DNA from: an uncultured Oscillospiraceae bacterium | GTDB lineage: Bacteria > Bacillota > Clostridia > Christensenellales > CAG-138 | Direction: 5' to 3' | Length of the DNA stretch: 64,000 nt | Assembly: GCA_964490325.1 (NCBI GenBank) | Contig: CAZBBX010000005.1 | Span: 20,121 to 84,120, forward strand | In this document: positions 3,580 to 18,706 of the stretch, in pieces | How positions within the stretch are numbered: the first letter of the stretch is position 1 | How the letters are laid out: every line of letters starts with the position of its first letter | Notes under the pieces: model-generated | Database searches by the model: none | What the model was told of the DNA's origin: nothing | Seen by the model: the letters and a program-made list of their open reading frames with translations, nothing else | Program-made: the position numbers and the translations under genes

Positions 3580-4422
3580 ATGGAAACAAGGATCAACAAA
3601 AAAGTACCGCAGCAAAAGCGCCGCCTGCTGCGCGAGGGCTGGCAGGAGCGCCTGCCCATCCGCGCCATGCTGATCGGCCTTGCGGTCGTGCTGCTCTTGG
3701 TGGTCATCCTTTTGATCAACTCCCCCACGCAATCGTATCTTGGAAGCGCGGAGATGGACGTCGTCCGTTCGCGGGGCATCCTGCGGGTGGGCGTGGACAC
3801 TTCGGTCTATGGTCTCAATGTGGACGGAAACGGCTATGAAGCGGAACTGGCGCGTGCTGTTGCGGCGGAGATCTTTGGCGAGGACGCGGAGGCTCTCAGC
3901 CTTGTGGAGGTCACGCGGCAGACCGCGCTGTGGCAGCTGCATGACGGACAGATCGATCTTGCGCTTGCCGCCGTTGCCGCCCCCGCCGACAGCGCCTACG
4001 CCGTGTGTGCCCGCCCCTTTTTGCAGGAGAGCTGCGTGCTGCTGGGCTATGCGCCGTCCGCGCCCACAACGGGCTCCGAGATCGCCGTATTGAACGGCAC
4101 CGCCGCACAGGAGCTGCTCGATACCTACCTGAAGGACAAGGATCCCTCCCTTGTCGCGCATCCCTATGCCGCCTACTACGACATGCTGGTCGCCCTGAGG
4201 GCGGGCACGGTGGACGCGCTCTGCCTGCCGCGCAGCGCGGCCATGACCCTGCTGGAGTCGGGCATGCACATCTATGAAGCGCCCCTGATCGGCGTCATTT
4301 CGTACTATGCGTTCTGCCGCAGCGAGGACGCGGTCTTAACGAACTATTTGGATGAGTATCTGTATGAACGATCGGAGGACGGCAGCCTTGCGGAGCTGTA
4401 CAAGCGCTTTGACATTGCCTAA
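3580..4422 (+). CDS. Membrane-anchored solute-binding (SBP family 3-like) domain protein
   Basis: I trimmed the ORF to the internal ATG at 3580 (METRINKK...). A TM segment (AMLIGLAVVLLLVVILLI) is followed by LRVGVDTSVYGLNVDGNGYEAELARAVAAEIFG and DGQIDLALAAV, which resemble amino-acid-type periplasmic binding domains. Confidence 0.6.
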   Translation: METRINKKVPQQKRRLLREGWQERLPIRAMLIGLAVVLLLVVILLINSPTQSYLGSAEMDVVRSRGILRVGVDTSVYGLNVDGNGYEAELARAVAAEIFGEDAEALSLVEVTRQTALWQLHDGQIDLALAAVAAPADSAYAVCARPFLQESCVLLGYAPSAPTTGSEIAVLNGTAAQELLDTYLKDKDPSLVAHPYAAYYDMLVALRAGTVDALCLPRSAAMTLLESGMHIYEAPLIGVISYYAFCRSEDAVLTNYLDEYLYERSEDGSLAELYKRFDIA

Positions 4423-4428
4423 TACCGA

Positions 4429-5592
4429 TCAAAGGATATAGTGCGCCAGTTCGCGCCGCTGCTTGATGAACAATTTGTCATAGACGCCGCTTAGGATGGC
4501 CTTCACGCTGCTCTCGGACAGCTTGACGCGCTCAGCGATCTCGGCGTTGCTGCAGCCGTAGCGCGCCGAAGACGCGATCTGATACTCGCGGCGGGTCAGG
4601 ATGAGCGTTACATTGTCCCGCGCCAGCTCGTTATGGACGCTGATCCAGTTGCCCCAGGTCTGCTCCGACTGCAACAGGATCTTTTCCTGCAGCTCGGGCG
4701 CAACACGCAAAAGCGAGGTCTCGATCAGTCCGTTGGATGGAACTAAGTTTTCGGCAAAGGGCGTGGTGATCCCGTCGGGCAGCGCAAGCTCCATGGCGTG
4801 CTCCACATGCCTCTGGGCGCGGACGGGGTCGTTGAGCAGCTGCGCAGCCTGCGAAGCCATCAGCAGCAGGTAGACCTCGGAAATGGTATAGCCCTTCTCG
4901 CGCCAACGCAGCGCCAGCGCCGTCTCGGCCACCGCCAGCATGGCTTCCGGCTTGTTTTGCGAATGCAGGTACTTGGTGTACAGGTACAGCGCCATGGGCA
5001 GCATTTCGGGTGTAAGCACATCGAAGCGGCGATCCGTGAACCAGCTCGGCAGGTTCTGCGGTGCAAACAGGCTGACGGAGATGTTCAGGATCGCCAGCTC
5101 CGCGATCCTGCGCTCGATACAGTCCTCCGCATAGCGCCTTTGGATCGCCTTCAGCGCATCCATGGCCTTGCGATAGCCCGTATAATCGCCCACGCTGATG
5201 CTTGCGATCGCGCTGACATTGCAGGCCGTGACATAGAGGGGGCTGTCCGTGCGCGTGATGCGCTGCGCCGTGGCGGCATAGGCAAAGTCGCCCCGCATAT
5301 AGGCCAGCTCGCAGCGCAGCTCTCGCTCGGCGGCGGCGTGCTGCTGCTGCGGGAGGACGTCGGCATGACCCGACTCCATGCGCAGATAGGTCGTAAGAAG
5401 CGTTGGATACAGAGTGTCATCGGCGTCGGTGCGGCGGCGGGGATCGCCGGGCTTTTTGCAGTTTGCGGGGATAAGCCATTGTCCGCCCAGCTGCTCCGCT
5501 CCTGCGATGCGTCCCTCCGACAGCAGCTTTTGCACCCTGCGCGGCGTAACGCCCCATTTGTCTGCAACTTCTTTAACGGAGATCCAATCCAT
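4429..5592 (-). CDS. Dual-HTH transcriptional regulator (N-terminal MerR/excisionase-type HTH, C-terminal LuxR-type HTH)
   Basis: The N-terminus MDWISVKEVADKWGVTPRRVQKLLSEGRIAG is a MerR/Xis-like HTH. The C-terminus LTRREYQIASSARYGCSNAEIAERVKLSESSVKAILSGVYDKL is a LuxR/GerE HTH. About 280 aa of helical sequence lie between them. Confidence 0.7.
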   Translation of the reverse strand: MDWISVKEVADKWGVTPRRVQKLLSEGRIAGAEQLGGQWLIPANCKKPGDPRRRTDADDTLYPTLLTTYLRMESGHADVLPQQQHAAAERELRCELAYMRGDFAYAATAQRITRTDSPLYVTACNVSAIASISVGDYTGYRKAMDALKAIQRRYAEDCIERRIAELAILNISVSLFAPQNLPSWFTDRRFDVLTPEMLPMALYLYTKYLHSQNKPEAMLAVAETALALRWREKGYTISEVYLLLMASQAAQLLNDPVRAQRHVEHAMELALPDGITTPFAENLVPSNGLIETSLLRVAPELQEKILLQSEQTWGNWISVHNELARDNVTLILTRREYQIASSARYGCSNAEIAERVKLSESSVKAILSGVYDKLFIKQRRELAHYIL

Positions 5593-5734
5593 TTCCCTAA
5601 GCCCTTTTCATGATATGCAATAAGTATATACGGAACTGCGAATAAAAGCAAGCCGCGCTTCCCCCCAAATTCGACGGATTTTGTGCGGGAACGCCGAAAG
5701 CTTCACGGCGATATGCAGCGTTGTCCCCTAACAT

Positions 5735-5775
5735 GGGAAAAGGGGCTTGACACGCTGCCAAGCCCCCGTTTTTAG
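5735..5775 (-). terminator. Rho-independent terminator downstream of the 5802-6284 gene
   Basis: The stem GGGGCTTG (5742-5749) pairs with CAAGCCCC (5759-5766). On the minus strand it is followed by TTTTCCC, and on the plus strand by GTTTTTA, so it may be bidirectional. Confidence 0.6.
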
Positions 5776-5801
5776 GATCGATCTTTGCTTTTACAAAGCG
5801 C

Positions 5802-6284
5802 CTATTTCATCAACTTCCACTCGCCGATGATGGGCAGCTTTTTCTTCTTGCCCTTGAGGGCGTTGACGATGCCGATGATCGCCAGCACGGTCACGGCGAT
5901 GCTCAGAAGCCAAATGATGAGGGAGATGTACCAAGGGGTCTGCGTCACCTCCACAGGAATGCCCCATATCTCTTTGACCGTGGTGACCTTGATGAGGTTG
6001 AGCAAAATATCCACGATGCAATAGCCGACCCACACGATGAACAGGTTGAAGCCCTGCTTGGCGTGGTACTGCGCGTAGGCGGAACCCTTGCGCGCATACA
6101 GCGGAATGAACACCAACGGCCCCAAATAGGCCAGCACTGCCATCCACTTGTTGTCCTCGTAGTCCTTTGTCCGCTCGTCCGACGGCGCAGCCTGATGCTC
6201 CGCTGCTTCTACCGGCGCTCCGCAGTTGGAGCAAAACGTGGAATCCTCTTCCAGCTTCGCACCGCATTTGTTGCAAAATGCCAT
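5802..6284 (-). CDS. Zinc-ribbon domain membrane protein (DUF4870-like)
   Basis: The N-terminus MAFCNKCGAKLEEDSTFCSNCGAP is a CxxC...CxxC zinc ribbon. It is followed by 3-4 hydrophobic helices (KWMAVLAYLGPLVFIPLYARK..., FNLFIVWVGYCIVDILL, WYISLIIWLLSIAVTVLAIIGIV). Confidence 0.65.
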   Translation of the reverse strand: MAFCNKCGAKLEEDSTFCSNCGAPVEAAEHQAAPSDERTKDYEDNKWMAVLAYLGPLVFIPLYARKGSAYAQYHAKQGFNLFIVWVGYCIVDILLNLIKVTTVKEIWGIPVEVTQTPWYISLIIWLLSIAVTVLAIIGIVNALKGKKKKLPIIGEWKLMK

Positions 6285-6445
6285 TCTGTTGCCCTCCCAT
6301 TGTTTAGTGTGGCGATCCCGCGAACACCTCTATGGTCGGCAAGGGTCGCCAACGCATAAACCTTTCGCGATCTCTTTATAAATATACTACAGATCTTCGC
6401 CGTGTACAATACTTTTGCGCACATCCGAAAGAATTATATTCCTTC

Positions 6446-6474
6446 TTGCCGCCTTCCTAAAAAAGTACTATACT
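6446..6474 (+). promoter_or_regulatory. Candidate sigma-A promoter for the wHTH-dapF pair
   Basis: TTGCCG (6446-6451), a 17-nt spacer, then TATACT (6469-6474), about 25 nt upstream of the ATG at 6499. Confidence 0.4.
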
Positions 6475-6498
6475 GATAAAAAAGCACGGGAGGCGGCT

Positions 6499-6843
6499 AT
6501 GGATCAACTGCGCTATACGCTGGTACTGCGTGTGTACGGCGAGGAGAAGGTGTTTGGCCCCGGGATAGCGGAGCTGCTGGAAAGGGTGGACGCGCTGCAC
6601 TCTCTGCGCAAGGCTACGATCGCCATGGGCATGGCCTACTCCAAGGCGTGGAGCATCATCAAGACTGCCGAAAAGGGCTTGGGCTTTCCGCTGCTGGAGA
6701 CGGCCACAGGCGGCCGCGGCGGCGGCGGCGCGGAGCTGACCGAGCGCGCAAGGCGTTTCCTTGCCGCCTATCGGCGCTTTGAGCAGGTCGTGCACGAGTA
6801 CGCCGATGAGAGCTTTTTGGAACTGTTTGGAGAGGAATCATGA
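6499..6843 (+). CDS. Winged-helix (ModE N-terminal/LysR-like) domain protein
   Basis: I trimmed the ORF to the ATG at 6499, which has GGGAGG upstream. The sequence LRKATIAMGMAYSKAWSIIKTAEKGLGFPLLETATGGRGGGGAELTERARRFL matches the ModE-type wHTH pattern. Its stop overlaps the dapF start (ATGA). Confidence 0.6.
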   Translation: MDQLRYTLVLRVYGEEKVFGPGIAELLERVDALHSLRKATIAMGMAYSKAWSIIKTAEKGLGFPLLETATGGRGGGGAELTERARRFLAAYRRFEQVVHEYADESFLELFGEES

Positions 6844-7676
6844 AATTTGTAAAAATGCACGGGCTGGGCAACGACTTTGCGCTCATCGACGCACGCTGTC
6901 TGCCCGAGACGGACTGGAACGCCCTTGCGCCGCGCATGTGCGAGCGCCACACGGGGATAGGCGCGGACGGCCTGCTGCTGCTGCTGCCCTCGGAAACGGC
7001 GGATGTGCGGATGCGCATCGTCAACGCGGACGGGAGCGAGGCCGAAATGTGCGGCAACGGCATCCGCTGCTTTGCCAAGTATGCCTATGAGCGCGGCGCA
7101 ATCGAGGCGGGCAGGACAAACTTTTCCGTGGAGACGGGTGCGGGCGTGATGCGCCCAACGGTGCTTACGGACAAGGGCGTGGTCACGGCGGTGCGCGTGG
7201 ACATGGGCAAGCCCTTCTTAGAGGCCGACGACGTCCCCGCACGCTGCGCCAAGGCCGTGGTGGATCGCCCCCTGCTGCTTCCAAACGGCGAGATCGTGCG
7301 CGTGACGTCCCTCAGGCTCGGCGTGCCCCATACCATCATTTTTGTAAACGACGCCTTGTCCGCCCCCGTGGAGCGGCTCGGCCCCATGGTGGAGCGCGAT
7401 CCCTTCTATCCGCAGGGGACGAACGTGAACTTCGTGTCCCGCTTGGACGAGAACACCTATCGCATTCGCACTTGGGAGCGGGGCTGCGGCCCGACCCTTG
7501 CCTGCGGCACGGGCGCCTGCTCCGCTGCGGTGGCGGGCATCCTAAACGGCGACCCGCGGCAGGTGAAGCGCCTGCTGCTGCCATTGGGCGAGCTTACGAT
7601 CGACTGGGCAAAGGACGAGCATGTGTACATGACCGGCCCCGCCGCCGAGGTCTATACGGGAGAATGGAACAGCTGA
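6840..7676 (+). CDS. dapF: Diaminopimelate epimerase
   Basis: MKFVKMHGLGNDFALID, MCGNGIRCF and ACGTGACSAAV give the two catalytic-Cys motifs of DapF. The ORF is 278 aa. Confidence 0.9.
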   Translation: MKFVKMHGLGNDFALIDARCLPETDWNALAPRMCERHTGIGADGLLLLLPSETADVRMRIVNADGSEAEMCGNGIRCFAKYAYERGAIEAGRTNFSVETGAGVMRPTVLTDKGVVTAVRVDMGKPFLEADDVPARCAKAVVDRPLLLPNGEIVRVTSLRLGVPHTIIFVNDALSAPVERLGPMVERDPFYPQGTNVNFVSRLDENTYRIRTWERGCGPTLACGTGACSAAVAGILNGDPRQVKRLLLPLGELTIDWAKDEHVYMTGPAAEVYTGEWNS

Positions 7677-11114: not shown

Positions 11115-11143
11115 TTTACTATCTTTGCGAACCATGCTAAAAT
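11115..11143 (+). promoter_or_regulatory. Candidate promoter for the 11173-16228 two-gene module
   Basis: TTTACT (11115-11120), a 17-nt spacer ending in TGC (extended -10), then TAAAAT (11138-11143), 30 nt before the ATG at 11173. Confidence 0.4.
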
Positions 11144-11172: not shown

Positions 11173-12153
11173 ATGCAGGCCATTGCATCGCAGCAGATCG
11201 ACGTGAAGGAAAATGGGCTTGCCGCATTGTCGTTGAGCATTCTTGGAGTACTGCTGGCAGATAAGACGACCGGCAGCAACATCCTGTGGGCGACCGATGA
11301 TTACGCCGCAAACGGCGAGGGCTATCGCAGCACCGAGCGGATCGAGATCTCCAAGATCACCGGTGCGCATGGGGAGCTCATACGCCCCCGCGTACAAAAG
11401 ACCAGCGACAAAAAGCAAACGCGCATTCGCAACATGGCGGAGGTCTTCACGCCGTCATGGGTATGCAACAAGCAAAACAATCTCATTGACAGCGCTTGGT
11501 TTTCGCGGGAAGCCGTTTTTAACACAGAGACGGACGGCGCTTGGATCCCGTCTGCCGAGCCGATCGCCTTTGAAAGCACAGGGAAGAAGACTTGGGAACG
11601 GTACGTTGCTGCGCAGCGCATTGAGATCACCTGCGGCGAAGCGCCCTACCTTGCGAGCCGCTATGACACGGTAAGCGGCGCTCCCATTCCGCTGCAGGCG
11701 CGCATCGGGCTGCTGGATCGAAAGCTGCGCGTGGTCAATGAAAACGCAAAGGACGACGCCGACTGGCTGCACCACTCGATCCGCGCCTTTCAGAGCGTGT
11801 ACGGATTTGAGTTTCAAGGCGACAATTTGCTGTTGGCGCGGGAGAACCTTTTGCAAAGCTTCATCGACTACTACACGGCACGCATGCAGCAAGCCCCGTC
11901 TGTCAAGCTTTTGCGGATCATCGCCAACATCATCGCGTGGAATATTTGGCAGATGGACGGCCTTAAATATGTAGTCCCCTACAGCTGCCACGATGAAAAG
12001 TCCGTCACCTCTCTGCTTGGGACTACCGAGACCTTTCCCTGCCCCGGCTGTAGAAGCAACAACATGCACAGGCATAACGGAGTCTATTGCAGGGTCATGG
12101 ATTGGCGTTCCAAGAGGAGCGTTCGGTTCATCGACATGATAAAAGCGAGGTAG
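11173..12153 (+). CDS. Methyltransferase N-terminal-half-like protein (motif X/I/II-like, no NPPY) with a C-terminal Cys/His cluster; partner of the downstream fusion protein
   Basis: AEVFTPSWV is motif X-like, IEITCGEAPYL resembles the ExxCGxGxF motif I, and YGFEFQGDNLLLARENL is motif II-like. The C-terminus has SCHDEK...CPGCRSNNMHRHNGVYC. The stop is 4 nt before the next start. The exact family was not identified. Confidence 0.5.
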   Translation: MQAIASQQIDVKENGLAALSLSILGVLLADKTTGSNILWATDDYAANGEGYRSTERIEISKITGAHGELIRPRVQKTSDKKQTRIRNMAEVFTPSWVCNKQNNLIDSAWFSREAVFNTETDGAWIPSAEPIAFESTGKKTWERYVAAQRIEITCGEAPYLASRYDTVSGAPIPLQARIGLLDRKLRVVNENAKDDADWLHHSIRAFQSVYGFEFQGDNLLLARENLLQSFIDYYTARMQQAPSVKLLRIIANIIAWNIWQMDGLKYVVPYSCHDEKSVTSLLGTTETFPCPGCRSNNMHRHNGVYCRVMDWRSKRSVRFIDMIKAR

Positions 12154-12157
12154 AGCC

Positions 12158-15100
12158 ATGGAGCAAAGAACCATACCAAAGATCGTCTATGTGCCGACCG
12201 TATCCTACAAGCTGATCTATGTGTTTTGCGTACACGATGCGGCGCATGAAGGCTTGCTCAAGGTGGGGGACGCCTCCTTGCCCACCTTGGCCGCGCCTGA
12301 CACGCTTTTGCCAAATTGCAGCGCGCTCAATGCGGCTGCAAGAGCGCGTATCAACAGCTACACCATCACCGCGGGGGTCTCCTACCATCTTTTGTATACC
12401 GAGCTTGCGATACGCCGCGAGACCCGCGACGACGGGAGCACGGAAACAGTGGCATTCCGCGACGGCAGCGTACATGCGGTACTGAGCAATTCGGGCATTG
12501 CAAAGGTCTATCCCAATGAAGTCAACGCAAACGAGTGGTTCCGAACGGATCTTGCCACGGTGCTGAACGCCATCAAGGCGGTCAAGCAGGGCAGAAGAAC
12601 GCTGTATGCCTCGGAGATCACCCCCGCCGACGCCGTGGAGATCCTTCTGCGTCAAGAGCAGGAGGACGCCATCCAAAAGACCATTGAGCGCTTCCGCCGC
12701 GGTGACAGCATGCTGTGGAACGCCAAGATGCGCTACGGCAAGACGGTCACGGCGCTGTCCTTGGTCAAGCGGCAGCTTGACAAGTATCAAAAGACCATCA
12801 TCGTCACCCATCGCCCCGTTGTGCAAAGCGGCTGGCAGGAAGATTTCTACAAGGTGTTTCGCAATTCGGACTGCGTCTTTGCCGCCAAGGATCACGACTC
12901 GGACAATCCCGAGGAGAGCAGCAGGATCGATTCTGCCAACGAGCTGCAGCTTAAAAGCCTTGTCACAGGCGGCAAACCCTTCATCTACTTCGCTTCCATC
13001 CAAGATCTGCGCGGCTCCAAGCAGGTGGGCGGCAGCTTCAACAAGAACAACGCCATCTTCAAAATGCACTGGGATCTGGTCATCAACGATGAAGCGCACG
13101 AGGGCACGCAGACCGACCTTGGCAAGCGCGTCACAACGGAGTTGACCTCCAAGGACACCAAGGTGCTGTCGCTTTCCGGTACGCCTTTCAACATCCTCTA
13201 CCAATACGATGACGACAGTATCTACACCTGGGACTATTGCATGGAGCAGGCGATGAAGCTGGAGTGGGACAAGACGCATCCGGGCGATCCCAACCCCTAT
13301 GCTTCCCTGCCGCAGATGCACATCTTTACCTACGAACTTGGCGACATCATCCGTGGGCTTTCCCCGGAGCTTGCAGGCAAGGCCTTCACCTTCACCGAGT
13401 TCTTCCGCACTTGGAGCGGCGATCCCCAAAAGGACGGCGAGGACGTTCCGCACGGGAAACACATCGGCGATTTTGTGCGTGAAGCGGATATCGTCAAGTT
13501 TCTGAACCTTATCACGACCAAGAGCGACGAGAGCGACTATCCCTTTGCCACGGAGGAGCATCGGCGCTTCTTCCAACACACGCTTTGGATGATCCCCGGC
13601 GTAAAGGAAGCAAAGGCGCTCAGCAAGCTCCTTAGGGAGCATCCGATCTTCCGAAACTTTGGGATCGCAAACGTGGCGGGTGAGGGGGACGACTTTGAGG
13701 ATCAGCACTACACCGACGCCCTTGCCCTCGTCAAAAAGACCATTCGGGACAACGACTATTCCATCACGCTTTCCTGCGGGAAGCTGACCACAGGCGTTAC
13801 CATCAAGGAATGGACGGCCTGCATGATGCTTTCCGGCTCTTACTTCACAGCGGCGTCCACCTATCTGCAGACCATCTTTCGCGTACAGTCCCCCGGCAGC
13901 ATCGACGGCAAGGCAAAGGAGCACTGCTACGTTTTCGACTTTGCCCCGGATCGCACGCTCAGGGTACTGGCCGAAGCGGCAAATGTCGCAAGGAAGGGCG
14001 GAACGGGCGGTACCAAGACGGACGATGCACACCGCGCCGCCATGCGAAAGTTTTTGAACTTCTGCCCCGTGCTGGCGATCTCGGGCACGAGCATGAAACC
14101 CTACAGCGTCGACACCATGATGCAGCAGATCAAGCGCATCTATGCCGAGAAGGCCATCCGTTCGGGCTTCGACGACGCCTCCATCTACAACGACCGCTTG
14201 TTCACACTGGACAAGGAAGCAGAGGAGCTGCTGGCGGCGCTGAAGGCGCAGATCGGCGCGACCAAGGCCATCGACAGCGGCAATGAGGTGAAAGTCAGCC
14301 ACAACGGCCTGACCGAAGAGGAATACGAGCAGCAGAAGGAGATCCAAAAGAAGCCCAAGCGAGAGCGGACGCCCGAGGAGCTTGCACAGCTTGCGCAGCA
14401 CAAGGAGCAGCTCAAGCAGCGCAACAACGCCATCTCCATCCTGCGCGGCGTATCGGTGCGTATGCCGCTGCTGATCTTTGGCGCGGACGTTCCCTTTGAC
14501 GAGGACATCACCATCGAGCGCTTTGTCGACATGGTCGACGACAGCTCTTGGACGGAGTTCATGCCCCGCGGCGTGACCAAGGACGTCTTTAGAAAGCTGA
14601 TCCCCTTCTATGACGGGGACGTCTTTCTTGCCGCCGGCAAGGAGATCCGCGAACAGGCAAAACGCGCCGACGGTCTGCTGCCCACAGAGCGCGTGCAGAC
14701 GATAGCACAGCTGTTTTCGTACTTCAAAAACCCCGACAAGGAGACCGTCCTCACCCCGTGGCGCGTGGTCAACCTGCACATGAGCGATACGCTGGGCGGC
14801 TATGATTTCTTTGACGAGGCGCACGAGCAGTCCCTTGACACACCGCGCCTTGTTGACCGCGGCGCCGTGTCGTTTGAGACGCTTTTGAACCCCGACGCCA
14901 AGATCCTTGAAATCAATTCCAAGACGGGTCTGTATCCGCTGTATGTCAGCTACAGCATCTATCGCGCCAAGTGCGAGGCCTTTTTGCACCCCGCACAGGC
15001 GGAGCAAGCGCGGGAAAAGCGAGAGCTTACCATCAAAAAGCAGCAGCAGCTGTGGGAGGCGACCGTGCGGGAGTGCGTGTTTGTCATCTGCAAGACCAAG

Positions 15101-16228
15101 ATGGCAAAGACCATCACGCAGCGTACACTGTTGGGCTATAAGGCCGCAAGGATCAATGCCCACAGCTTTGACGATCTTGTCAACCAACTGAAAAACAAGC
15201 CCGATCAATTCATCGGCAAGGTGAAGCGGGCTTCCTTCTGGAACGTACAAGGAGAAACGGAAATGAAATTCGATGCAGTCGTAGGCAATCCGCCGTATCA
15301 GATCATGGACGGCGGCAACAAAGCAAGCGCTACCCCTGTCTACAATTACTTTGTTGAGCAGGCAAAGTGTCTTACGCCAAAGTACATTTCCATGATAATG
15401 CCCGCTAAATGGTATTCCGGAGGAAAAGGGCTTGATGGATTTAGAGATGATATGTTGAATGATGTTCGAATTCAAAAGTTGGTGGATTTTGAAGACAGCA
15501 ATTTTGTATTTACCGGAATCGATATTGCTGGTGGTGTTTGCTTCTTCCTTTGGGACAAAAAATACAATGGGAAATGCACTATTTACAATAGATCTAAAAA
15601 CGGCATTGAACACGTCGAAATGCGATACCTTAATGCTTTTGATACCTTTATACGGAATAACAATGCTATTGAAATCGTCCATAAGGTTACCGGAGGTACG
15701 GACCACTTTATGAGCGAATTGGTTTCTGCGAGAAAGCCATTTGGTTTACCAACTAATACGAGTTCAATAACTAATGGTGATCTTTCGCTAAGATATAATG
15801 CCGGAATGGGAAAGTATGCAAGATCCCAAGTTACCGCAGGACAAGGGATAATTGATAAGTGGAAAGTTATTATATCCTACTTAAGTTCGGAACATGCCGG
15901 ACAACCTGATAAGAACGGCATGTTTAAGGTGCTATCCACACTTGAAATATTGCCTCCTAAAGCAATATGTACGGAAACGTATTTAGTTGTTGATAGTTTT
16001 GAAAGTAGGAGCGAAGCGCAAAATCTAATGGATTATCTTAAGGCTAGATTCGTTCGGTTCTTAGTGCTGCAAATTGCTTTATCTCAGCATATTACTCGCA
16101 ATAGTTTTAAGTTTGTCCCCATCCAAGACTTCACCAAGTCTTGGACGGACGAGGAGCTTTACGCGAAGTACGGTTTGACCAAGGAGGAGATCGCCTTTGT
16201 TGAGGCTACCATCAAACCCATGGAGTAA
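12158..16228 (+). CDS. Fusion protein: T5orf172/GIY-YIG-like N-domain, SF2 (ResIII/DEAH) helicase-translocase, Eco57I-like NPPY adenine-methylase module, variable C-terminal domain
   Basis: The N-terminal KLIYVFCVHD..LLKVGDAS..ANEWF is GIY-YIG/T5orf172-like. Helicase motifs are MRYGKTVTA (I), VINDEAHEG (II), LSLSGTPF (III), and TGVTIKEW and FRVQSPG (V/VI). FDAVVGNPPYQ is motif IV. The tail WTDEELYAKYGLTKEEIAFVEATIKPME is conserved. The 1192-aa antisense ORF has no recognisable motifs. Confidence 0.75.
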   Translation: MEQRTIPKIVYVPTVSYKLIYVFCVHDAAHEGLLKVGDASLPTLAAPDTLLPNCSALNAAARARINSYTITAGVSYHLLYTELAIRRETRDDGSTETVAFRDGSVHAVLSNSGIAKVYPNEVNANEWFRTDLATVLNAIKAVKQGRRTLYASEITPADAVEILLRQEQEDAIQKTIERFRRGDSMLWNAKMRYGKTVTALSLVKRQLDKYQKTIIVTHRPVVQSGWQEDFYKVFRNSDCVFAAKDHDSDNPEESSRIDSANELQLKSLVTGGKPFIYFASIQDLRGSKQVGGSFNKNNAIFKMHWDLVINDEAHEGTQTDLGKRVTTELTSKDTKVLSLSGTPFNILYQYDDDSIYTWDYCMEQAMKLEWDKTHPGDPNPYASLPQMHIFTYELGDIIRGLSPELAGKAFTFTEFFRTWSGDPQKDGEDVPHGKHIGDFVREADIVKFLNLITTKSDESDYPFATEEHRRFFQHTLWMIPGVKEAKALSKLLREHPIFRNFGIANVAGEGDDFEDQHYTDALALVKKTIRDNDYSITLSCGKLTTGVTIKEWTACMMLSGSYFTAASTYLQTIFRVQSPGSIDGKAKEHCYVFDFAPDRTLRVLAEAANVARKGGTGGTKTDDAHRAAMRKFLNFCPVLAISGTSMKPYSVDTMMQQIKRIYAEKAIRSGFDDASIYNDRLFTLDKEAEELLAALKAQIGATKAIDSGNEVKVSHNGLTEEEYEQQKEIQKKPKRERTPEELAQLAQHKEQLKQRNNAISILRGVSVRMPLLIFGADVPFDEDITIERFVDMVDDSSWTEFMPRGVTKDVFRKLIPFYDGDVFLAAGKEIREQAKRADGLLPTERVQTIAQLFSYFKNPDKETVLTPWRVVNLHMSDTLGGYDFFDEAHEQSLDTPRLVDRGAVSFETLLNPDAKILEINSKTGLYPLYVSYSIYRAKCEAFLHPAQAEQAREKRELTIKKQQQLWEATVRECVFVICKTKMAKTITQRTLLGYKAARINAHSFDDLVNQLKNKPDQFIGKVKRASFWNVQGETEMKFDAVVGNPPYQIMDGGNKASATPVYNYFVEQAKCLTPKYISMIMPAKWYSGGKGLDGFRDDMLNDVRIQKLVDFEDSNFVFTGIDIAGGVCFFLWDKKYNGKCTIYNRSKNGIEHVEMRYLNAFDTFIRNNNAIEIVHKVTGGTDHFMSELVSARKPFGLPTNTSSITNGDLSLRYNAGMGKYARSQVTAGQGIIDKWKVIISYLSSEHAGQPDKNGMFKVLSTLEILPPKAICTETYLVVDSFESRSEAQNLMDYLKARFVRFLVLQIALSQHITRNSFKFVPIQDFTKSWTDEELYAKYGLTKEEIAFVEATIKPME

Positions 16229-16251: not shown

Positions 16252-16280
16252 TTGACAAGCGGGGAACGGGGGAATATACT
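16252..16280 (+). promoter_or_regulatory. Sigma-A promoter driving the riboswitch and cation antiporter
   Basis: TTGACA (16252-16257), an exact 17-nt spacer, then TATACT (16275-16280). Confidence 0.6.
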
Positions 16281-16284
16281 AACA

Positions 16285-16381
16285 GCGTAAAGGGGAGTAG
16301 CGGCGAAGGTTTTTCGCGGCTGTCCGCGTCATCACGGCGCTCATAACGCCCGCGGCTGTCAATTTCGCAAGACTTTTACGT
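16285..16381 (+). promoter_or_regulatory. Probable yybP-ykoY (Mn2+-sensing) riboswitch
   Basis: The sequence contains GUAAAGGGGAGUAGCG...GUCAAUUUCGCAAGACUUUUACG. The AAAGGGGAGUAG and GCAAGAC boxes and the closing P1 helix (CGUAAAG/CUUUUACG) match my memory of the yybP-ykoY consensus (L. lactis yoaB: AAAGGGGAGUAGCGUC...UAGCAAGACCUUU). It lies in the 5' leader of a cation transporter. Confidence 0.6.
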
Positions 16382-16430
16382 CATCTTTGTATGGCGGAAA
16401 AGTCTTTTTTTCTGCCGAAAGGAGTTTTCC

Positions 16431-17411
16431 ATGTCGTTTTCCGTTCCCGATTCCCTGTTTTGGACCATCGCGCTGTTTGCCGTTGGTCTTGCCGTCATCT
16501 GCCTGTCGGGCGACCGCTTTGTGGACGCCTCCGTGGACATTGCCAAGCGCCTGCGCATTCCGCAGCTGGTGGTTGGCGCCACCATCGTCTCCCTTGGCAC
16601 CACCCTGCCCGAGATCTTGGTCTCCACAAGCGCCGCGCTTGAAGGCTCCCCCGAGATCGCCGTAGGCAACGCGCTGGGCAGCATCATCTGCAACACCGCG
16701 CTCATCGCCGCCCTTGGGCAGCTGTTGGCTCCCGCAAAACGCGTGGAAAGCGGCTCCGTGGGCTGGCGCTTCCTGTTCTTTGTGGGCGCGCTTGCCGCCT
16801 TTGCCGCCTTAAGCGCCGTGCTTGGCTACCTGCCGCGCATCTACGGCATCGCCTCCCTCGTCGCCTTTGCCCTGTATGCCTACCTGTCCGTGCGCAGCGC
16901 CCGCAAGGGGCAGCAGCCGACCGAAAACAGCGAGGATCTCAATAAGATCCCCTCCATTCCCATCTCCCTAATCAAGCTCGTCCTCTTTGCAGCCTTGCTG
17001 TTTGTGGGTGCGCAGCTGCTCATCGACAACGGCAAGGTGCTTGCCATCAACTATCTGGGCGTGCCCGAACGCGTGGTCGCCGTCACGCTCATCGCGCTTG
17101 GCACCTCCCTGCCCGAGCTGGTCACCACCCTCAGCTCCGTCGCCAAGAAGCAGGGCGACATCGGCCTTGGCAACATCATCGGCGCCAACCTGTTCAACCT
17201 GCTGCTGGTGCTGGGCATCCCCTCCGCGCTGTCGGGACAGATCGCCATCACCCAACCCTCCACCCTGTATCTGGACGCCCCCCTGTGCCTTGTTGTGATG
17301 CTGCTTTTGATCGTTCCCATGCTGGTGAAGAAGAAGGGCTCGCGCCTGTTCGGCGGCATCCTCATTGCCCTGTATATCGCCTACTGCGCGTACAGCTTTA
17401 TTGCCGTTTGA
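16431..17411 (+). CDS. Ca2+/cation antiporter (CaCA, YrbG-like sodium/calcium exchanger family)
   Basis: Two alpha-repeat motifs are present: GATIVSLGTTLPEILVS and LIALGTSLPELVTT. There are about 10 TM segments, and the N-terminus has SGDRFVDASVDIAKRLRIPQLVVG. Confidence 0.85.
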   Translation: MSFSVPDSLFWTIALFAVGLAVICLSGDRFVDASVDIAKRLRIPQLVVGATIVSLGTTLPEILVSTSAALEGSPEIAVGNALGSIICNTALIAALGQLLAPAKRVESGSVGWRFLFFVGALAAFAALSAVLGYLPRIYGIASLVAFALYAYLSVRSARKGQQPTENSEDLNKIPSIPISLIKLVLFAALLFVGAQLLIDNGKVLAINYLGVPERVVAVTLIALGTSLPELVTTLSSVAKKQGDIGLGNIIGANLFNLLLVLGIPSALSGQIAITQPSTLYLDAPLCLVVMLLLIVPMLVKKKGSRLFGGILIALYIAYCAYSFIAV

Positions 17412-17518: not shown

Positions 17519-18706
17519 TTAGGAATCGAAGGTAACGTTGGAGTCGTACTTGAGCGAGTAGAAGCCCTCGGCGTCCTTCAGCGACATGGAGTTGTTGGAC
17601 TTCATGTCCAGATCGGTGTAGACAAGCTGCAGACCTTCCGCGGAGCCGTCGTCCAAGATGACGGTCAACTCGTACAGCTCGGCGTTCGCCATGTCCGTCA
17701 GCACCAGATGCTTGTACTGATCGTCGCTTTCGCAGACAGGCCAGTCCTCCGTCAGCAGGTTCTCGCCCTTGTCCTCTGCGCCGCTCGGATACAGGTAGGC
17801 GGCCTTCATGGTAAGTCCCGTCTTGTTCTTGAACACGAAGCGCAGCGTGACCGTGGCCGAGCTGTCGTCCGCAGCGTCGCCTGCCGCCGCGATGGGCTGT
17901 CCGTTCTCATCGATGTTGGAATCGAACTTGACGGAGAGCGTCTCCTCGTTGTCCTTCATGGACACCGAGTTGGCGTTGACCAGATCGTTGCCGTCGAAGG
18001 TCCAGCTTTCGCCGTTGGTGAACTCGACCGTGATGTCATAGGTGTCCGCCTGCGGCCGATCCAGCACCAGCCACAGGTAGTCGTCCTGCGACTTGTTGCT
18101 CTTGTACACCTCGCTGATGACGCTTTCGCCCTTGTCCTCTGCGCCGGAGGGATACACATACACCGCCGAGCAGTCATAGGAGGTCTTGTTCTTGAACAGG
18201 AACTTGAGCTGCACGGTGTTCGTTTCGTCGATCTTGACCTCGGCAAAGTCCACCGTGACGCCTGCGTTTATAAGATCCTCCTTGGTGAATTCCACCTCGT
18301 TGTCGTTCTTGACGCTGATCTCCGTGCCGTCTGCCGACTTCATGGAGACCGAATTGTTGAACTTGAGCGCCAACTGCGGGAACACGCAGCTCGTGCCGTC
18401 GGTGAAGGTCAGGCTGATGTCGTAATACTCCGCCTCGGGACGCGCAAGGATCATGCGCTTGTACTGCGAGCTGTCCGTGTTGTTCACCCAAGTTTCACTG
18501 ATGACGTTCTCCCCCTTGTCGGCAGCGCCGCTTGGGTAGACATAGGCCTCGCTGACGTCCTTACCCGTCTTGTTTTTGAACACGAACGCCAAGGCGATCA
18601 AATTTTCATCCGTGGCGGGCTCTTCGGCGTCGCCGCCCTTGTCCGCGCAGGCGCCAAGCGCTGCAAGCATGAGTACCGCCAGCAGCAATGCAAGGATCTT
18701 CTTCAT
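17519..18706 (-). CDS. Lipoprotein of unknown function with three ~100-aa internal repeats
   Basis: The lipobox is MKKILALLLAVLMLAALGAC. The repeated core is F(V/L)FKNKT....A(Y/V)(V/L)YPSGA.DKGE.(V/L)(I/L).E, seen three times: FVFKNKTGKDVSEAYVYPSGAADKGENVISE, FLFKNKTSYDCSAVYVYPSGAEDKGESVISE and FVFKNKTGLTMKAAYLYPSGAEDKGENLLTE. Confidence 0.7.
   Translation of the reverse strand: MKKILALLLAVLMLAALGACADKGGDAEEPATDENLIALAFVFKNKTGKDVSEAYVYPSGAADKGENVISETWVNNTDSSQYKRMILARPEAEYYDISLTFTDGTSCVFPQLALKFNNSVSMKSADGTEISVKNDNEVEFTKEDLINAGVTVDFAEVKIDETNTVQLKFLFKNKTSYDCSAVYVYPSGAEDKGESVISEVYKSNKSQDDYLWLVLDRPQADTYDITVEFTNGESWTFDGNDLVNANSVSMKDNEETLSVKFDSNIDENGQPIAAAGDAADDSSATVTLRFVFKNKTGLTMKAAYLYPSGAEDKGENLLTEDWPVCESDDQYKHLVLTDMANAELYELTVILDDGSAEGLQLVYTDLDMKSNNSMSLKDAEGFYSLKYDSNVTFDS

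What the first reader, a model, noticed from the sequence alone, without database searches (positions are those of the whole stretch)
11173..16228. Two-gene nuclease-helicase-methylase-like module inserted between core genes: candidate undescribed restriction/defence system
Two co-directional ORFs sit 4 nt apart (stop 12153, start 12158) between housekeeping gdhA and a riboswitch-controlled cation antiporter. No integrase or transposase is nearby.

From N to C, ORF2 (1356 aa) reads:
- a T5orf172/GIY-YIG-like module (KLIYVFCVHD, LLKVGDAS, ANEWF);
- an SF2 DEAH translocase (MRYGKTVTA, VINDEAHEG, LSGTPF, FRVQSPG);
- a charged linker (EEEYEQQKEIQKKPKRERTPEELAQLAQHKEQLKQRNN);
- an NPPY adenine-methylase-like module;
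- a variable C-terminal domain.

The order nuclease-translocase-methylase-specificity domain is the logic of single-polypeptide Type ISP enzymes (LlaGI/LlaBIII). As I recall, those enzymes use an Mrr/PD-(D/E)XK nuclease and a complete gamma-class methylase. Here the nuclease slot is GIY-YIG-like, and the methylase appears to be divided between ORF1 and ORF2. I cannot assign this pair to any named defence system from memory.
Basis: partly seen in the sequence, partly recalled or inferred. Interest (0 to 1): 0.85.

Follow-up and report, generated by a model that had tools for sequence, protein, structure and literature searches.

The report
Two-gene helicase-nuclease restriction-modification module
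This is a widespread but uncharacterised two-gene restriction-modification-type defence module whose methylase is built from exchangeable halves, including one half on a separate small protein, which may hint at how such enzymes choose between protecting and cutting DNA.

Summary
Both ORFs are real, 4 nt apart, and form an obligatory pair. An ORF1 homologue sits directly upstream of the ORF2 homologue in 74 of 80 genomes from many phyla. The other six loci lack upstream sequence.

ORF2 reads, N to C: T5orf172/GIY-YIG-like nuclease, SF2 motor, helical linker, Eco57I-type adenine-methylase domain, variable target-recognition domain. Its best structural match is the Type ISP enzyme LlaBIII.

ORF1 is the N-terminal, SAM-binding half (motifs X, I, II, III) of the same methylase type. 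Elsewhere it is fused exactly to a homologue of ORF2's C-terminal half. In phages the two halves occur as separate proteins with no motor or nuclease.

The motor protein always carries a second, degenerate N-half. It lacks the motif II acidic residue.

The catalytic C-half plus recognition domain is a mobile cassette. It differs between otherwise 99% identical strains.

Most likely this is an ATP-dependent restriction-modification system in which ORF1 supplies methylation competence. It is a new variant of a known kind, not a new kind. REBASE-derived profiles already catalogue its pieces, and papers from 2009 and 2012 allude to such enzymes. I found no experimental characterisation of this family.

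The parts
11115..11143 (+). Promoter-like site (TTTACT-17 nt-TAAAAT, with TG before the second hexamer) about 30 nt upstream of ORF1
   Evidence: Consensus scan; sequence. A pattern match only, not shown to function.
11173..12153 (+). ORF1, 326 aa: stand-alone N-terminal (SAM-binding) half of an Eco57I/MmeI-type gamma-class adenine methylase ('N_true'), plus a C-terminal Cys/His zinc-ribbon-like insert
   Evidence: ORF. PADLOC MTase_II PDLC03390, 1e-119, full length. AlphaFold model, pLDDT 83, with only three Rossmann-type strands. Aligns with the pCV56A small protein, which hits Pfam N6_Mtase positions 20-105 and MmeI_Mtase positions 21-97. Fused to the C-half in M669/M717 and about 30 of the 150 best representatives. 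BFVD match to 173-aa phage 'N-6 DNA methylase', TM 0.82.
11437..11454 (+). ORF1 motif X (AEVFTP)
   Evidence: Translation. Invariant in 36 homologues.
11617..11652 (+). ORF1 motif I strand and loop (RIEITCGEAPYL). It aligns with the canonical LEPAAGDGNFL of the Lactococcus partner protein.
11794..11811 (+). ORF1 motif II (SVYGFE). The acidic residue E213 is E or D in all homologues examined.
11944..11961 (+). ORF1 motif III-like segment (IWQMDG; D262 and G263 invariant)
   Evidence: Assignment to motif III is by position and is an inference.
11986..12090 (+). ORF1 Cys/His cluster (C272, C290, C293, H301, C306), zinc-ribbon-like. It lies between the N-half and the point where the C-half joins in fused relatives.
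   Evidence: Absent from the E. faecium plasmid homologue.
12158..16228 (+). ORF2, 1356 aa: nuclease-motor-methylase-specificity fusion. A GAGG ribosome-binding site lies inside the end of ORF1, so translational coupling is likely.
12200..12562 (+). T5orf172/GIY-YIG-like putative nuclease domain (aa about 15-135; invariant Y21, K35, G37, R64, E82, W127)
   Evidence: Pfam T5orf172 in 28 of 35 homologues, MUG113 in 14 of 35. Invariant residues. Above Pfam's cut-off in the split relatives L011 and L101.
12635..14257 (+). SF2 helicase-like ATPase/translocase (Walker A MRYGKTVTA at 12728-12754; DEAH at 13079-13105; two RecA-like lobes)
   Evidence: Pfam ResIII. Model. Foldseek matches to LlaBIII, ISWI/Chd1/Snf2 and SauUSI.
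14315..14428 (+). Charged linker (EEEYEQQKEIQKK...KQRNN)
   Evidence: Low-confidence or helical in the model.
14729..15262 (+). Degenerate cis N-half of the methylase fold ('N_pseudo', aa about 858-1035). Motif X is KETVLTPWRVVN. Motif I is ILEINSKTGLYPLY. The second strand is VFVICKT, with C978 and K979 where the motif II acidic residue should be.
   Evidence: Strands at aa 916-919, 974-978 and 1000-1003 in the model. Pfam Eco57I positions 1-72 lie here. Invariant residues. The same domain ends the separate motor proteins R1120 and R1138 and the L101 tail ORF.
15263..15550 (+). Catalytic C-half of the methylase (motifs IV-VIII; FDAVVGNPPYQ at 15269-15301)
   Evidence: Pfam Eco57I. PADLOC MTase_II PDLC03375 and IIG PDLC03626. 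Stand-alone homologues start exactly here, at Eco57I model position 73.
15551..16057 (+). Variable target-recognition domain (aa about 1132-1300)
   Evidence: Lowest column conservation. Beta-rich in the model. CamA-like methylase plus DNA-recognition architecture.
15304..16156 (+). Cassette replaced between conspecific strains; coincides with a drop in G+C to 0.43
   Evidence: L096-L099 are 99.2-99.9% identical to the window up to 15303 or 15553, and unrelated until 15851 or 16157. G+C profile.
16058..16228 (+). Conserved C-terminal tail (…FVPIQDFTKSWTDEELYAKYGLT…) and stop codon; likely 3' anchor for cassette exchange

Best explanation
The pair is an ATP-dependent restriction-modification-type defence system.

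ORF2 carries a T5orf172/GIY-YIG-like nuclease, an SF2 DNA translocase, an Eco57I-type N6-adenine methylase module and a target-recognition domain. It works on the Type ISP plan: recognise an asymmetric site through the C-terminal module, methylate it if it is host DNA, otherwise translocate and cut.

ORF1 is not an independent methylase and not a nuclease. It is the SAM-binding N-terminal half (motifs X, I, II, III) of the same methylase fold. It has no catalytic NPPY and no specificity domain. It most likely complements the catalytic C-half plus recognition domain of ORF2 in trans to give the methylation-competent enzyme.

The degenerate N-half built into ORF2 lacks the SAM ribose-binding acidic residue. 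It belongs to the motor/nuclease module and most likely couples that module to the recognition module.

Shown here: domain content, obligatory pairing, the half-domain nature of ORF1, fusions and permutations in other genomes, cassette exchange of the C-half plus recognition domain.

Inferred: defence function, nuclease activity, which N-half pairs with the C-half, and the mode of cleavage.
For: Domains:
- Searches give the domain assignments.
- The ORF2 model (pLDDT 80.8) has LlaBIII Type ISP as its best PDB match (E 3.6e-19, about 1460 aligned columns). Next come CamA, BrxX/PglX and Snf2-type motors.

Obligatory pair:
- An ORF1 homologue lies directly upstream in 74 of 80 genome loci from more than 8 phyla. 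The six exceptions have less than 500 nt of upstream sequence.
- No third gene is conserved.

ORF1 is an N-half:
- Its model has only three Rossmann-type strands.
- It is homologous to a Lactococcus plasmid partner protein that hits only the N-terminal part of Pfam N6_Mtase and MmeI_Mtase.
- In L103, protein M669 equals ORF1 aa 9-320 followed directly by ORF2 aa 1031-1356. L104 is the same.
- About 30 of the 150 best representatives are such fusions.

N-half plus C-half are found together without motor or nuclease, which argues that they suffice as a methylase:
- Phage PTm1 encodes the two halves as separate proteins with no motor or nuclease.
- Phage FNU4 encodes them fused.

Conserved residues:
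- ORF1 keeps the motif II acidic residue and the motif III Asp.
- The cis N-half has C/A-K at the motif II position.

Defence context:
- Neighbours include Kiwa, Mrr-type nuclease, DUF262, McrC, KAP NTPase, and recombinases or integrases.
- 87 plasmids carry relatives.
- The C-half plus recognition cassette is swapped between 99% identical strains.
- That cassette evolves independently of ORF1 and the cis N-half: Mantel r 0.13 and 0.07, against 0.67 for ORF1 versus the cis N-half.

Literature:
- An analogous cluster of MmeI-like methylase, DEAD helicase and GIY-YIG protein (YeeA/B/C) is described in PMC2731913.
- yeeAB conferred phage resistance in Vibrio crassostreae (bioRxiv 10.1101/2021.05.05.442762).
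Against: - No experiment exists for this family. I found no paper that characterises it.
- The B. subtilis YeeA/B/C cluster gave no phage protection or restriction (PMC9973331).
- T5orf172 is not significant in this protein itself. Few T5orf172 proteins have shown nuclease activity (PMC9040626).
- ORF2 alone is predicted to form a complete seven-strand methylase fold with its own N-half. It is therefore unclear where ORF1 would dock. I could not inspect coordinates or run a complex prediction.
- The similarity between ORF1 and the cis N-half is collinear at motifs X and I but not statistically significant (hhalign E 0.45).
- No 'empty site' was found to prove insertion.
Confidence: 0.7

Rival explanations
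1. ORF2 is a self-sufficient Type ISP-like enzyme whose own N-half binds SAM in a non-canonical way. ORF1 is an accessory subunit, for example a SAM sensor, an assembly or dimerisation partner, or a regulator of the nuclease. It is not a catalytic complement.
For: - ORF2 covers the whole Pfam Eco57I model (positions 1-171) and shows seven strands in the model.
- The cis N-half is as strongly conserved as the helicase motifs, so it is not a decaying relic.
- In locus L011 a small extra N-half protein accompanies a methylase that is complete by Pfam.
Against: - The cis N-half lacks the motif II acidic residue and the glycine-rich loop, and ORF1 keeps them.
- In phages the ORF1-type half plus the C-half are found with no cis N-half, motor or nuclease.
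- In other genomes the same cis N-half ends the motor protein with no C-half after it, while ORF1 is fused to the C-half.
Confidence: 0.2
2. The locus no longer restricts. It is a relic whose methylase acts as an orphan epigenetic regulator, as proposed for B. subtilis DnmA-YeeB-YeeC.
For: - PMC9973331 found no defence or restriction by the analogous B. subtilis cluster.
- The locus sits between core genes with no mobility genes nearby.
Against: - Both ORFs are intact and every catalytic-type residue that is invariant in the family is present.
- Conspecific strains keep the full pair while exchanging only the specificity cassette. That is the pattern of an actively selected specificity system.
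- The family is very widely spread horizontally.
Confidence: 0.07
3. The pair is a mobile-element or phage function (anti-restriction methylation, replication or homing) and not a host defence.
For: - Phages encode the two methylase halves.
- A few contigs deposited as phage carry the whole system.
- T5orf172 domains are common in homing endonucleases (PMC9040626).
Against: - No phage record covers at least 80% of ORF2. The verified phages carry only the methylase halves.
- The full-length system is found in chromosomes and plasmids of at least 590 species, often beside other defence genes.
- In the window it sits in a core chromosomal region.
Confidence: 0.03

Closest known systems
[quoted passage not shown]
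   Same: - Same domain order: N-terminal nuclease, SF2 translocase, gamma-class adenine methylase, C-terminal recognition domain.
- LlaBIII is the best structural match of the ORF2 model (4xqk, E 3.6e-19).
- Relatives are also carried on lactic-acid-bacteria plasmids.
   Different: - The nuclease is T5orf172/GIY-YIG-like, not Mrr/PD-(D/E)xK.
- The system is not a single polypeptide. A 326-aa half-methylase partner is always present.
- The methylase N-half in the large protein is degenerate.
- No sequence-level similarity to PDB entries, even with a profile.
- Mechanism untested.
YeeA (DnmA)/YeeB/YeeC-type clusters: MmeI-like methylase without nuclease, plus DEAD helicase, plus GIY-YIG/T5orf172 protein (PMC2731913, PMC9973331)
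   Same: - Same three activities: gamma-class m6A methylase with recognition domain, SF2 helicase, T5orf172/GIY-YIG nuclease.
- Same predicted logic.
- Found in defence islands.
- yeeAB gave phage resistance in Vibrio crassostreae (bioRxiv 10.1101/2021.05.05.442762).
   Different: - There the three activities are three separate proteins and the methylase is MmeI-like and unsplit.
- Here nuclease, helicase and the catalytic half of an Eco57I-type methylase are one chain, and the SAM-binding half is a separate protein.
Type III restriction-modification (Mod plus Res, for example EcoP15I)
   Same: The sister architecture found here (complete methylase M669/M717 followed by a 1120-1138-aa helicase-nuclease protein) has the Mod-then-Res gene layout. 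Pfam assigns the motor to the ResIII family.
   Different: - The methylase is gamma-class Eco57I-type, not beta-class Mod.
- The nuclease is N-terminal T5orf172, not a C-terminal PD-(D/E)xK.
- The motor protein ends in a half-methylase domain.
Type IIG/IIL enzymes and Eco57I-family methylases (Eco57I, MmeI, DrdV), CamA and BREX PglX
   Same: - Catalytic NPPY module plus fused recognition domain: Pfam Eco57I and PADLOC IIG/MTase_II profiles.
- Structural matches to CamA (TM 0.56) and BrxX/PglX.
- Specificity varies by exchange of the recognition module.
   Different: - No PD-(D/E)xK domain.
- ATP-dependent motor present.
- The PADLOC Type IIG profile matches only the last 370 aa or so.
Two-subunit (split) DNA methylases such as M.AquI and M.EcoHK31I (recalled from memory, not checked here)
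   Same: One methylase fold is assembled from two polypeptides.
   Different: - Those are C5-cytosine methylases.
- Here the split lies between motifs III and IV of an adenine methylase.
- It coincides with a recombination boundary.
- It is accompanied by a second, degenerate N-half.

Membership tests
Type ISP restriction-modification | N-terminal Mrr-like PD-(D/E)xK (PD-QxK) nuclease domain (PMC3874165) | tested here: not met
   The N-terminal domain is T5orf172/MUG113-like in 28 and 14 of 35 homologues. No Mrr or PD-(D/E)xK hit in Pfam, NCBIfam or PADLOC.
Type ISP restriction-modification | Order nuclease - SF2 translocase - gamma-methylase - recognition domain in one chain | tested here: met
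   LlaBIII is the best Foldseek match over about 1460 columns.
Type ISP restriction-modification | A single polypeptide is sufficient for restriction and modification | tested here: not met
   By genomic inference only. The ORF1 partner is present in 74 of 74 testable loci and keeps the SAM-binding residues that ORF2's own N-half lacks. Biochemical sufficiency was not tested.
Type ISP restriction-modification | ATP-driven translocation from an asymmetric site and cleavage on head-to-head collision | not testable with these tools
   Needs biochemistry.
Type ISP restriction-modification | Detectable sequence homology to LlaGI/LlaBIII | tested here: not met
   A profile of 35 homologues finds no PDB sequence at E<=0.1. 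The single sequence also finds none.
T5orf172 / GIY-YIG superfamily nuclease | Match to the T5orf172 (PF10544) or MUG113 profile | tested here: inconclusive
   No hit for the window protein at E<0.1. There are hits in 28 of 35 close homologues (best 1.6e-4). The split relatives score above the gathering score: 22.5 and 38.1 bits against 20.
T5orf172 / GIY-YIG superfamily nuclease | Conserved Tyr, Lys/Tyr-Gly, Arg, Glu and Glu-Trp-Phe positions | tested here: met
   Y21, K35, G37, R64, E82 and W127 are invariant, and E126 nearly so, in 35 homologues.
T5orf172 / GIY-YIG superfamily nuclease | Nuclease activity | not testable with these tools
   Only a few T5orf172 proteins, such as ICP1 Odn, have been characterised (PMC9040626).
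Eco57I-type gamma-class N6-adenine methylase | Catalytic motif IV NPPY with motifs V-VIII | tested here: met
   Pfam Eco57I 5.9e-33. F1038, A1040, G1043 and N1044-Y1047 are invariant.
Eco57I-type gamma-class N6-adenine methylase | Canonical SAM-binding motifs I-III in the same chain | tested here: not met
   ORF2 has LEINSKTGLYPLY and VFVICKT, with no motif II acidic residue. ORF1, a separate chain, has E151...G155, E/D213 and D262.
Split methylase (ORF1 N-half plus C-half) | The two parts occur fused as one protein elsewhere, with an exact junction | tested here: met
   M669 is ORF1 aa 9-320 plus ORF2 aa 1031-1356. M717 is the same. The FNU4 single frame is also fused. About 30 of the 150 best representatives are fusions.
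Split methylase (ORF1 N-half plus C-half) | The two parts occur as neighbouring separate genes without other partners | tested here: met
   Phage PTm1 gp279 (N-half, 48% identical to ORF1) and gp277 (C-half, starting at Eco57I model position 73).
Split methylase (ORF1 N-half plus C-half) | Physical complementation of ORF2's C-half by ORF1 | not tested
Needs a complex prediction or biochemistry.
YeeA/YeeB/YeeC (DnmA) type cluster | MmeI-like methylase lacking a nuclease, flanked by a DEAD helicase and a GIY-YIG/T5orf172 protein as separate genes (PMC2731913) | tested here: not met
   Here the three activities are fused in ORF2 and the methylase is Eco57I-type. Only the small partner proteins of distant relatives hit MmeI_Mtase, both below the family's cut-off of 27 bits (pCV56A 21.8 bits and L011 23.2 bits). 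Sequence homology to YeeA/B/C could not be tested.
Type IIG (PADLOC REase_MTase_IIG PDLC03626) | Full-length match to the 1359-position profile | tested here: not met
   Only profile positions from about 970-1005 to 1359 match, in ORF2 and in six relatives.

The most novel reading that the evidence does not exclude
One catalytic C-half plus recognition module alternates between two different N-terminal half-domains.

With the free, SAM-binding half (ORF1), it is a methylase. With the degenerate half that is tethered to the helicase-nuclease, it is a SAM-free recognition head that licenses translocation and cutting.

The choice between modifying and restricting would then be made by half-domain exchange. 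The same boundary (between motifs III and IV) would also be the recombination joint that lets specificity cassettes move between systems.

The two gene layouts found here, [N_true][motor-N_pseudo-C] and [N_true-C][motor-N_pseudo], are what one would expect if all three pieces meet in one complex.
Probability: 0.25. Interest if true: 0.85.

Novelty: new variant of a known kind. Interest (0 to 1): 0.6.

Why it matters
This family is one of the commoner restriction-modification-type modules in gut and environmental bacteria. Annotation still splits it into a 'methylase' and a 'subunit M' or 'restriction endonuclease', and I found no experimental work on it.

Recognising ORF1 as a half-methylase, and the C-half plus recognition domain as an exchangeable cassette, has three uses:
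- It corrects the annotation.
- It predicts that ORF2 alone is toxic or non-modifying.
- It gives a concrete, testable model for how a fused enzyme decides between methylation and cleavage.

The cassette boundary could also be used to re-target specificity.

Tried and rejected
- **Sequence searches of PDB.** Searches with each protein and with family profiles found nothing useful.
- **ORF1 model against PDB.** Foldseek gave no significant match. Only weak top hits to the methylases of BsaXI, BrxX, DrdV and MmeI appeared.
- **Rfam.** No family reaches its gathering score in the whole window, so the 'riboswitch' claim is not supported at that level.
- **Co-folding ORF1 with ORF2's C-terminus.** The fused-chain alignment A3 was misaligned by MAFFT. 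ORF1 homologues were placed on the ORF2 part, so I discarded it. A correctly paired alignment of 57 true pairs was built locally but not submitted.
- **ORF1 against ORF2's methylase region.** hhalign found no significant homology, so I do not claim the two N-halves are demonstrably paralogous.
- **Silent cassettes or inverted repeats for phase variation.** None in the window. Only one of 80 loci (L027) has a stray C-terminal fragment.
- **A conserved third gene.** None. The best flanking family occurs in 6 of 80 loci.
- **An 'empty site' between gdhA and the antiporter.** All conspecific contigs carry the pair.
- **ORF1 as a nuclease.** This is PGAP's name for the E. faecium homologue. I rejected it because ORF1 has no nuclease profile and is fused to methylase C-halves.
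- **BREX, DISARM, Dnd and Pbe.** Only marginal profile hits.
- **Direct comparison with YeeA/B/C.** Not possible because their sequences were not retrievable.

Full report
**1. Observation**

ORF1 is 11173-12153 (326 aa) and ORF2 is 12158-16228 (1356 aa). The ORF1 stop and the ORF2 ATG are 4 nt apart, with a GAGG just upstream inside ORF1. A promoter-like site lies at 11115-11143. The next gene has its own promoter-like site at 16252-16280. All quoted peptide motifs are present.

The flanks are gdhA and a Na_Ca_ex antiporter. No integrase or transposase lies within about 8 kb in conspecific contigs.

The 'riboswitch' is not supported at Rfam's thresholds. There is only a sub-threshold Mn2+ riboswitch match at 16280-16427.

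**2. Domain content of ORF2**

- Pfam gives ResIII (aa 162-344) and Eco57I (aa 972-1118, model positions 1-171).
- PADLOC's REBASE-derived profiles match only the last 320 aa or so: Type IIG PDLC03626, and a 348-position 'MTase_II' PDLC03375. The same holds in six relatives.
- T5orf172 is not significant in this protein. It is found in 28 of 35 homologues and MUG113 in 14 of 35. It scores above Pfam's cut-off in split relatives.
- Y21, K35, G37, R64, E82 and W127 are invariant.

I made an AlphaFold model of aa 157-1356 (63 sequences, pLDDT 80.8). It shows two RecA-like lobes, a long helical linker, and a seven-strand methylase-type region. The strands lie at aa 916-919, 974-978, 1000-1003, 1040-1043 (followed by NPPY), 1076-1082, 1105-1111 and 1127-1133. 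A beta-rich C-terminal domain follows.

The best PDB match is the Type ISP enzyme LlaBIII (4xqk, E 3.6e-19, about 1460 columns). Next come CamA (TM 0.56), BrxX/PglX, Snf2-type remodellers and SauUSI. There is no sequence-level match to any PDB chain, even with a profile.

**3. ORF1**

ORF1 has no Pfam or NCBIfam hit. It does match PADLOC 'MTase_II' PDLC03390 over its full length at 1e-119. NCBI calls relatives 'restriction endonuclease subunit M' or, on plasmids, 'restriction endonuclease'.

The family is uniformly conserved and has no variable segment. These residues are invariant:
- AEVFTP (motif X)
- E151, C154, G155, E156, P158, Y159, L160 (motif I position)
- G211, with E or D at 213 (motif II)
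- D262, G263 (motif III position)
- a Cys/His cluster

There is no NPPY.

Its AlphaFold model (pLDDT 83) has only three Rossmann-type strands, followed by small hairpins. PDB Foldseek gives nothing significant, though the weak top hits are gamma-class methylases. In the viral library it matches 173- and 199-aa phage 'N-6 DNA methylase' proteins (E 7e-11, TM 0.82).

The partner protein in Lactococcus plasmid pCV56A (230 aa) aligns with ORF1 aa 80-258. It hits only the N-terminal part of Pfam N6_Mtase (positions 20-105 of 311) and MmeI_Mtase (21-97 of 259), with a canonical LEPAAGDGNFL.

**4. The pair is obligatory and self-contained**

The 80 loci kept come from Bacillota, Bacteroidota, Spirochaetota, Verrucomicrobiota, Planctomycetota, Synergistota, Cloacimonadota, Sutterella, Bdellovibrionales and others.

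An ORF1 homologue lies directly upstream in 74 of them. The other six have less than 500 nt upstream. No other flanking gene family occurs in more than 6 of 80 loci.

Neighbours seen in individual loci:
- Kiwa KwaA/KwaB
- an Mrr-type nuclease
- an AAA-protease pair
- DUF262 and McrC
- a KAP NTPase
- integrases, resolvases and transposases

. This association with defence genes is anecdotal, not a statistic.

87 plasmids carry relatives, mostly from Enterococcus, Lactococcus and lactobacilli. No phage record covers 80% of ORF2.

**5. ORF1 is half of a methylase whose other half is ORF2's C-terminus**

A profile search of 1.84 billion representatives found 2503 ORF1 relatives.

- About 30 of the best 150 are 590-720-aa proteins. 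They carry the ORF1-like part at residues 1-320 or so, followed at once by Pfam Eco57I positions from about 51 (in one case 3) to 171.
- In L103 the 669-aa protein aligns with ORF1 aa 9-320 at its residues 7-319. It aligns with ORF2 aa 1031-1356 at residues 320-669. The junction is exact. L104 is the same.
- Fusobacterium phage FNU4 has the two parts in one reading frame, with Eco57I positions 9-171.
- Tenacibaculum phage PTm1 has them as separate genes. gp279 is 48% identical to ORF1. gp277 is 344 aa and starts at Eco57I model position 73. There is no helicase or nuclease.

So an ORF1-type half plus a C-half form a complete methylase unit. The break lies between motifs III and IV.

**6. A second N-half travels with the motor**

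ORF2 has its own motif X (KETVLTPWRVVN) and motif I-like strand (ILEINSKTGLYPLY). It also has a second strand (VFVICKT) and a third. All are invariant or nearly so across the superfamily. The motif II acidic residue is replaced by C or A, followed by K or P.

In the sister layout, the 1120- and 1138-aa motor proteins consist of T5orf172, helicase and linker. They end in the same domain (QIFTPKKVV, FIDLYMKSGLY, VYGLAPTE...ILGF). They stop where the NPPY strand would begin. L101 has the same tail.

The pieces are therefore constant:
- a SAM-competent N-half (N_true)
- a degenerate N-half attached to the motor (N_pseudo)
- one C-half plus recognition domain

Only the covalent links differ:
- Window: [N_true] + [nuclease-motor-N_pseudo-C-recognition domain]
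- Sister layout: [N_true-C-recognition domain] + [nuclease-motor-N_pseudo]

A collinear alignment of ORF1 with N_pseudo at motifs X and I exists but is not significant (E 0.45).

**7. The C-half plus recognition domain is a mobile cassette**

Contigs from strains with an identical GdhA are 99.2-99.9% identical to the window from 9001 up to 15303 or 15553. They are then unrelated until 15851 or 16157. These breakpoints correspond to aa 1049 or 1132 through about 1333. The first lies just after NPPY. G+C falls to 0.43 there, against 0.57-0.62 around it.

Across 57 true pairs:

| Comparison | Mantel r |
|---|---|
| ORF1 vs N_pseudo | 0.67 |
| ORF1 vs C-half core | 0.13 |
| ORF1 vs recognition domain | 0.07 |
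| C-half core vs recognition domain | 0.58 |

The protein-split boundary and the recombination boundary coincide.

**8. Mechanism**

Inferred, with confidence 0.7: this is an ATP-dependent restriction-modification system on the Type ISP plan. The recognition domain and C-half read an asymmetric site. With ORF1 supplying SAM binding, the adenine is methylated. Unmodified foreign DNA triggers the SF2 motor, and the T5orf172 domain cuts.

ORF1 comes first in the operon and is likely translationally coupled to ORF2, which fits a protective subunit.

How ORF1 docks is unresolved, because ORF2's own N-half is predicted to complete the fold. I could not inspect coordinates or run a complex prediction.

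The most novel reading (probability 0.25) is that the two N-halves exchange on the single C-half. That exchange would switch the enzyme between modification and restriction.

**9. Comparison with what is known**

- *Type ISP.* Closest in plan and fold. The module fails three defining features: an Mrr nuclease, single-polypeptide sufficiency, and sequence homology.
- *YeeA(DnmA)/YeeB/YeeC.* Closest in parts list: MmeI-like methylase, DEAD helicase and GIY-YIG/T5orf172 protein. Morgan et al. 2009 (PMC2731913) described it and also noted 'large single polypeptides' with nuclease, helicase, methylase and recognition domain that had 'received little attention'.
- Sisakova et al. 2013 (PMC3553950) mention relatives that use GIY-YIG nucleases.
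- The B. subtilis cluster showed no defence (PMC9973331). yeeAB gave phage resistance in Vibrio crassostreae (bioRxiv 10.1101/2021.05.05.442762).
- I found no paper that combines T5orf172, Eco57I and helicase. No paper on split methylases in restriction-modification systems turned up.

**10. Verdict**

The feature is real, and it is a new variant of a known kind.

The pieces are already catalogued as restriction-modification components, and the architecture class has been noted before.

The half-methylase partner, the duplicated N-half and the permuted layouts are not, to my knowledge, described. They give a testable handle on the choice between modification and restriction.

Interest: 0.6.

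Noticed in passing
window 16280-16427 (+), upstream of the Na_Ca_ex gene at 16431-17411: A sub-threshold match to the Mn2+ (yybP-ykoY) riboswitch covers the whole model, positions 1-177. It scores 14.6 bits against a gathering score of 45, E 0.033 in a 261-nt search. A strong promoter-like site (TTGACA-17-TATACT) lies at 16252-16280. It could be a divergent metal riboswitch or chance.
   Followed up: partly
window 17519-18706 (-): A 395-aa predicted lipoprotein (signal peptide ending ...LGAC) is built from three internal repeats of about 110 aa. Each contains F(V/L)FKNKTG...YVYPSGA.DKGE...SMK. It has no Pfam hit on record.
   Followed up: no
L027:1237-1533 (Candidatus Limimorpha sp. contig), about 4.5 kb upstream of its ORF1/ORF2 pair: An isolated fragment is homologous to ORF2 aa 1267-1355 (38% identity). 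It may be a stray or spare recognition-domain/tail cassette. It is the only such case among 80 loci.
   Followed up: partly
L011:3686-8914 (phage NatCom_35866, PV036449.1): A different arrangement: a 260-aa N-half-only protein (MmeI_Mtase positions 17-120), then a 506-aa methylase that is complete by Pfam, then a 974-aa T5orf172-helicase protein with a different tail. The extra N-half therefore persists even where the methylase is unsplit.
   Followed up: partly
L010:3796-4644 and flanks (E. faecium plasmid p16-164_1, NZ_CP065774.1): PGAP names the ORF1 homologue 'restriction endonuclease', which is probably a misnomer for a half-methylase. This version lacks the zinc-ribbon insert. The pair is followed by a DUF262 protein and lies near an McrC family protein.
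   Followed up: partly
L009:3518-7876 (L. lactis plasmid pCV56A): The Lactococcus and Enterococcus versions of ORF2 carry an extra N-terminal extension ahead of the T5orf172-like domain. In pCV56A it gives a weak Pfam DUF4145 hit (19.0 bits, below the cut-off of 23.1). Their small partner has a canonical motif I (LEPAAGDGNFL).
   Followed up: partly
window 14386-14428 vs 58254-58297 (opposite strand): A 44-nt match at 84% identity links the charged-linker coding region of ORF2 to a distant site in the window. It is probably a low-complexity coincidence.
   Followed up: no
L101:4016-7151 (MT835780.1, unverified 'phage' contig): The T5orf172-helicase ORF (4016-6082) and the ORF carrying the terminal half-methylase domain (6021-7151) overlap in different frames. 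This suggests a frameshift or sequencing error in what is elsewhere a single protein of about 1100 aa.
   Followed up: no
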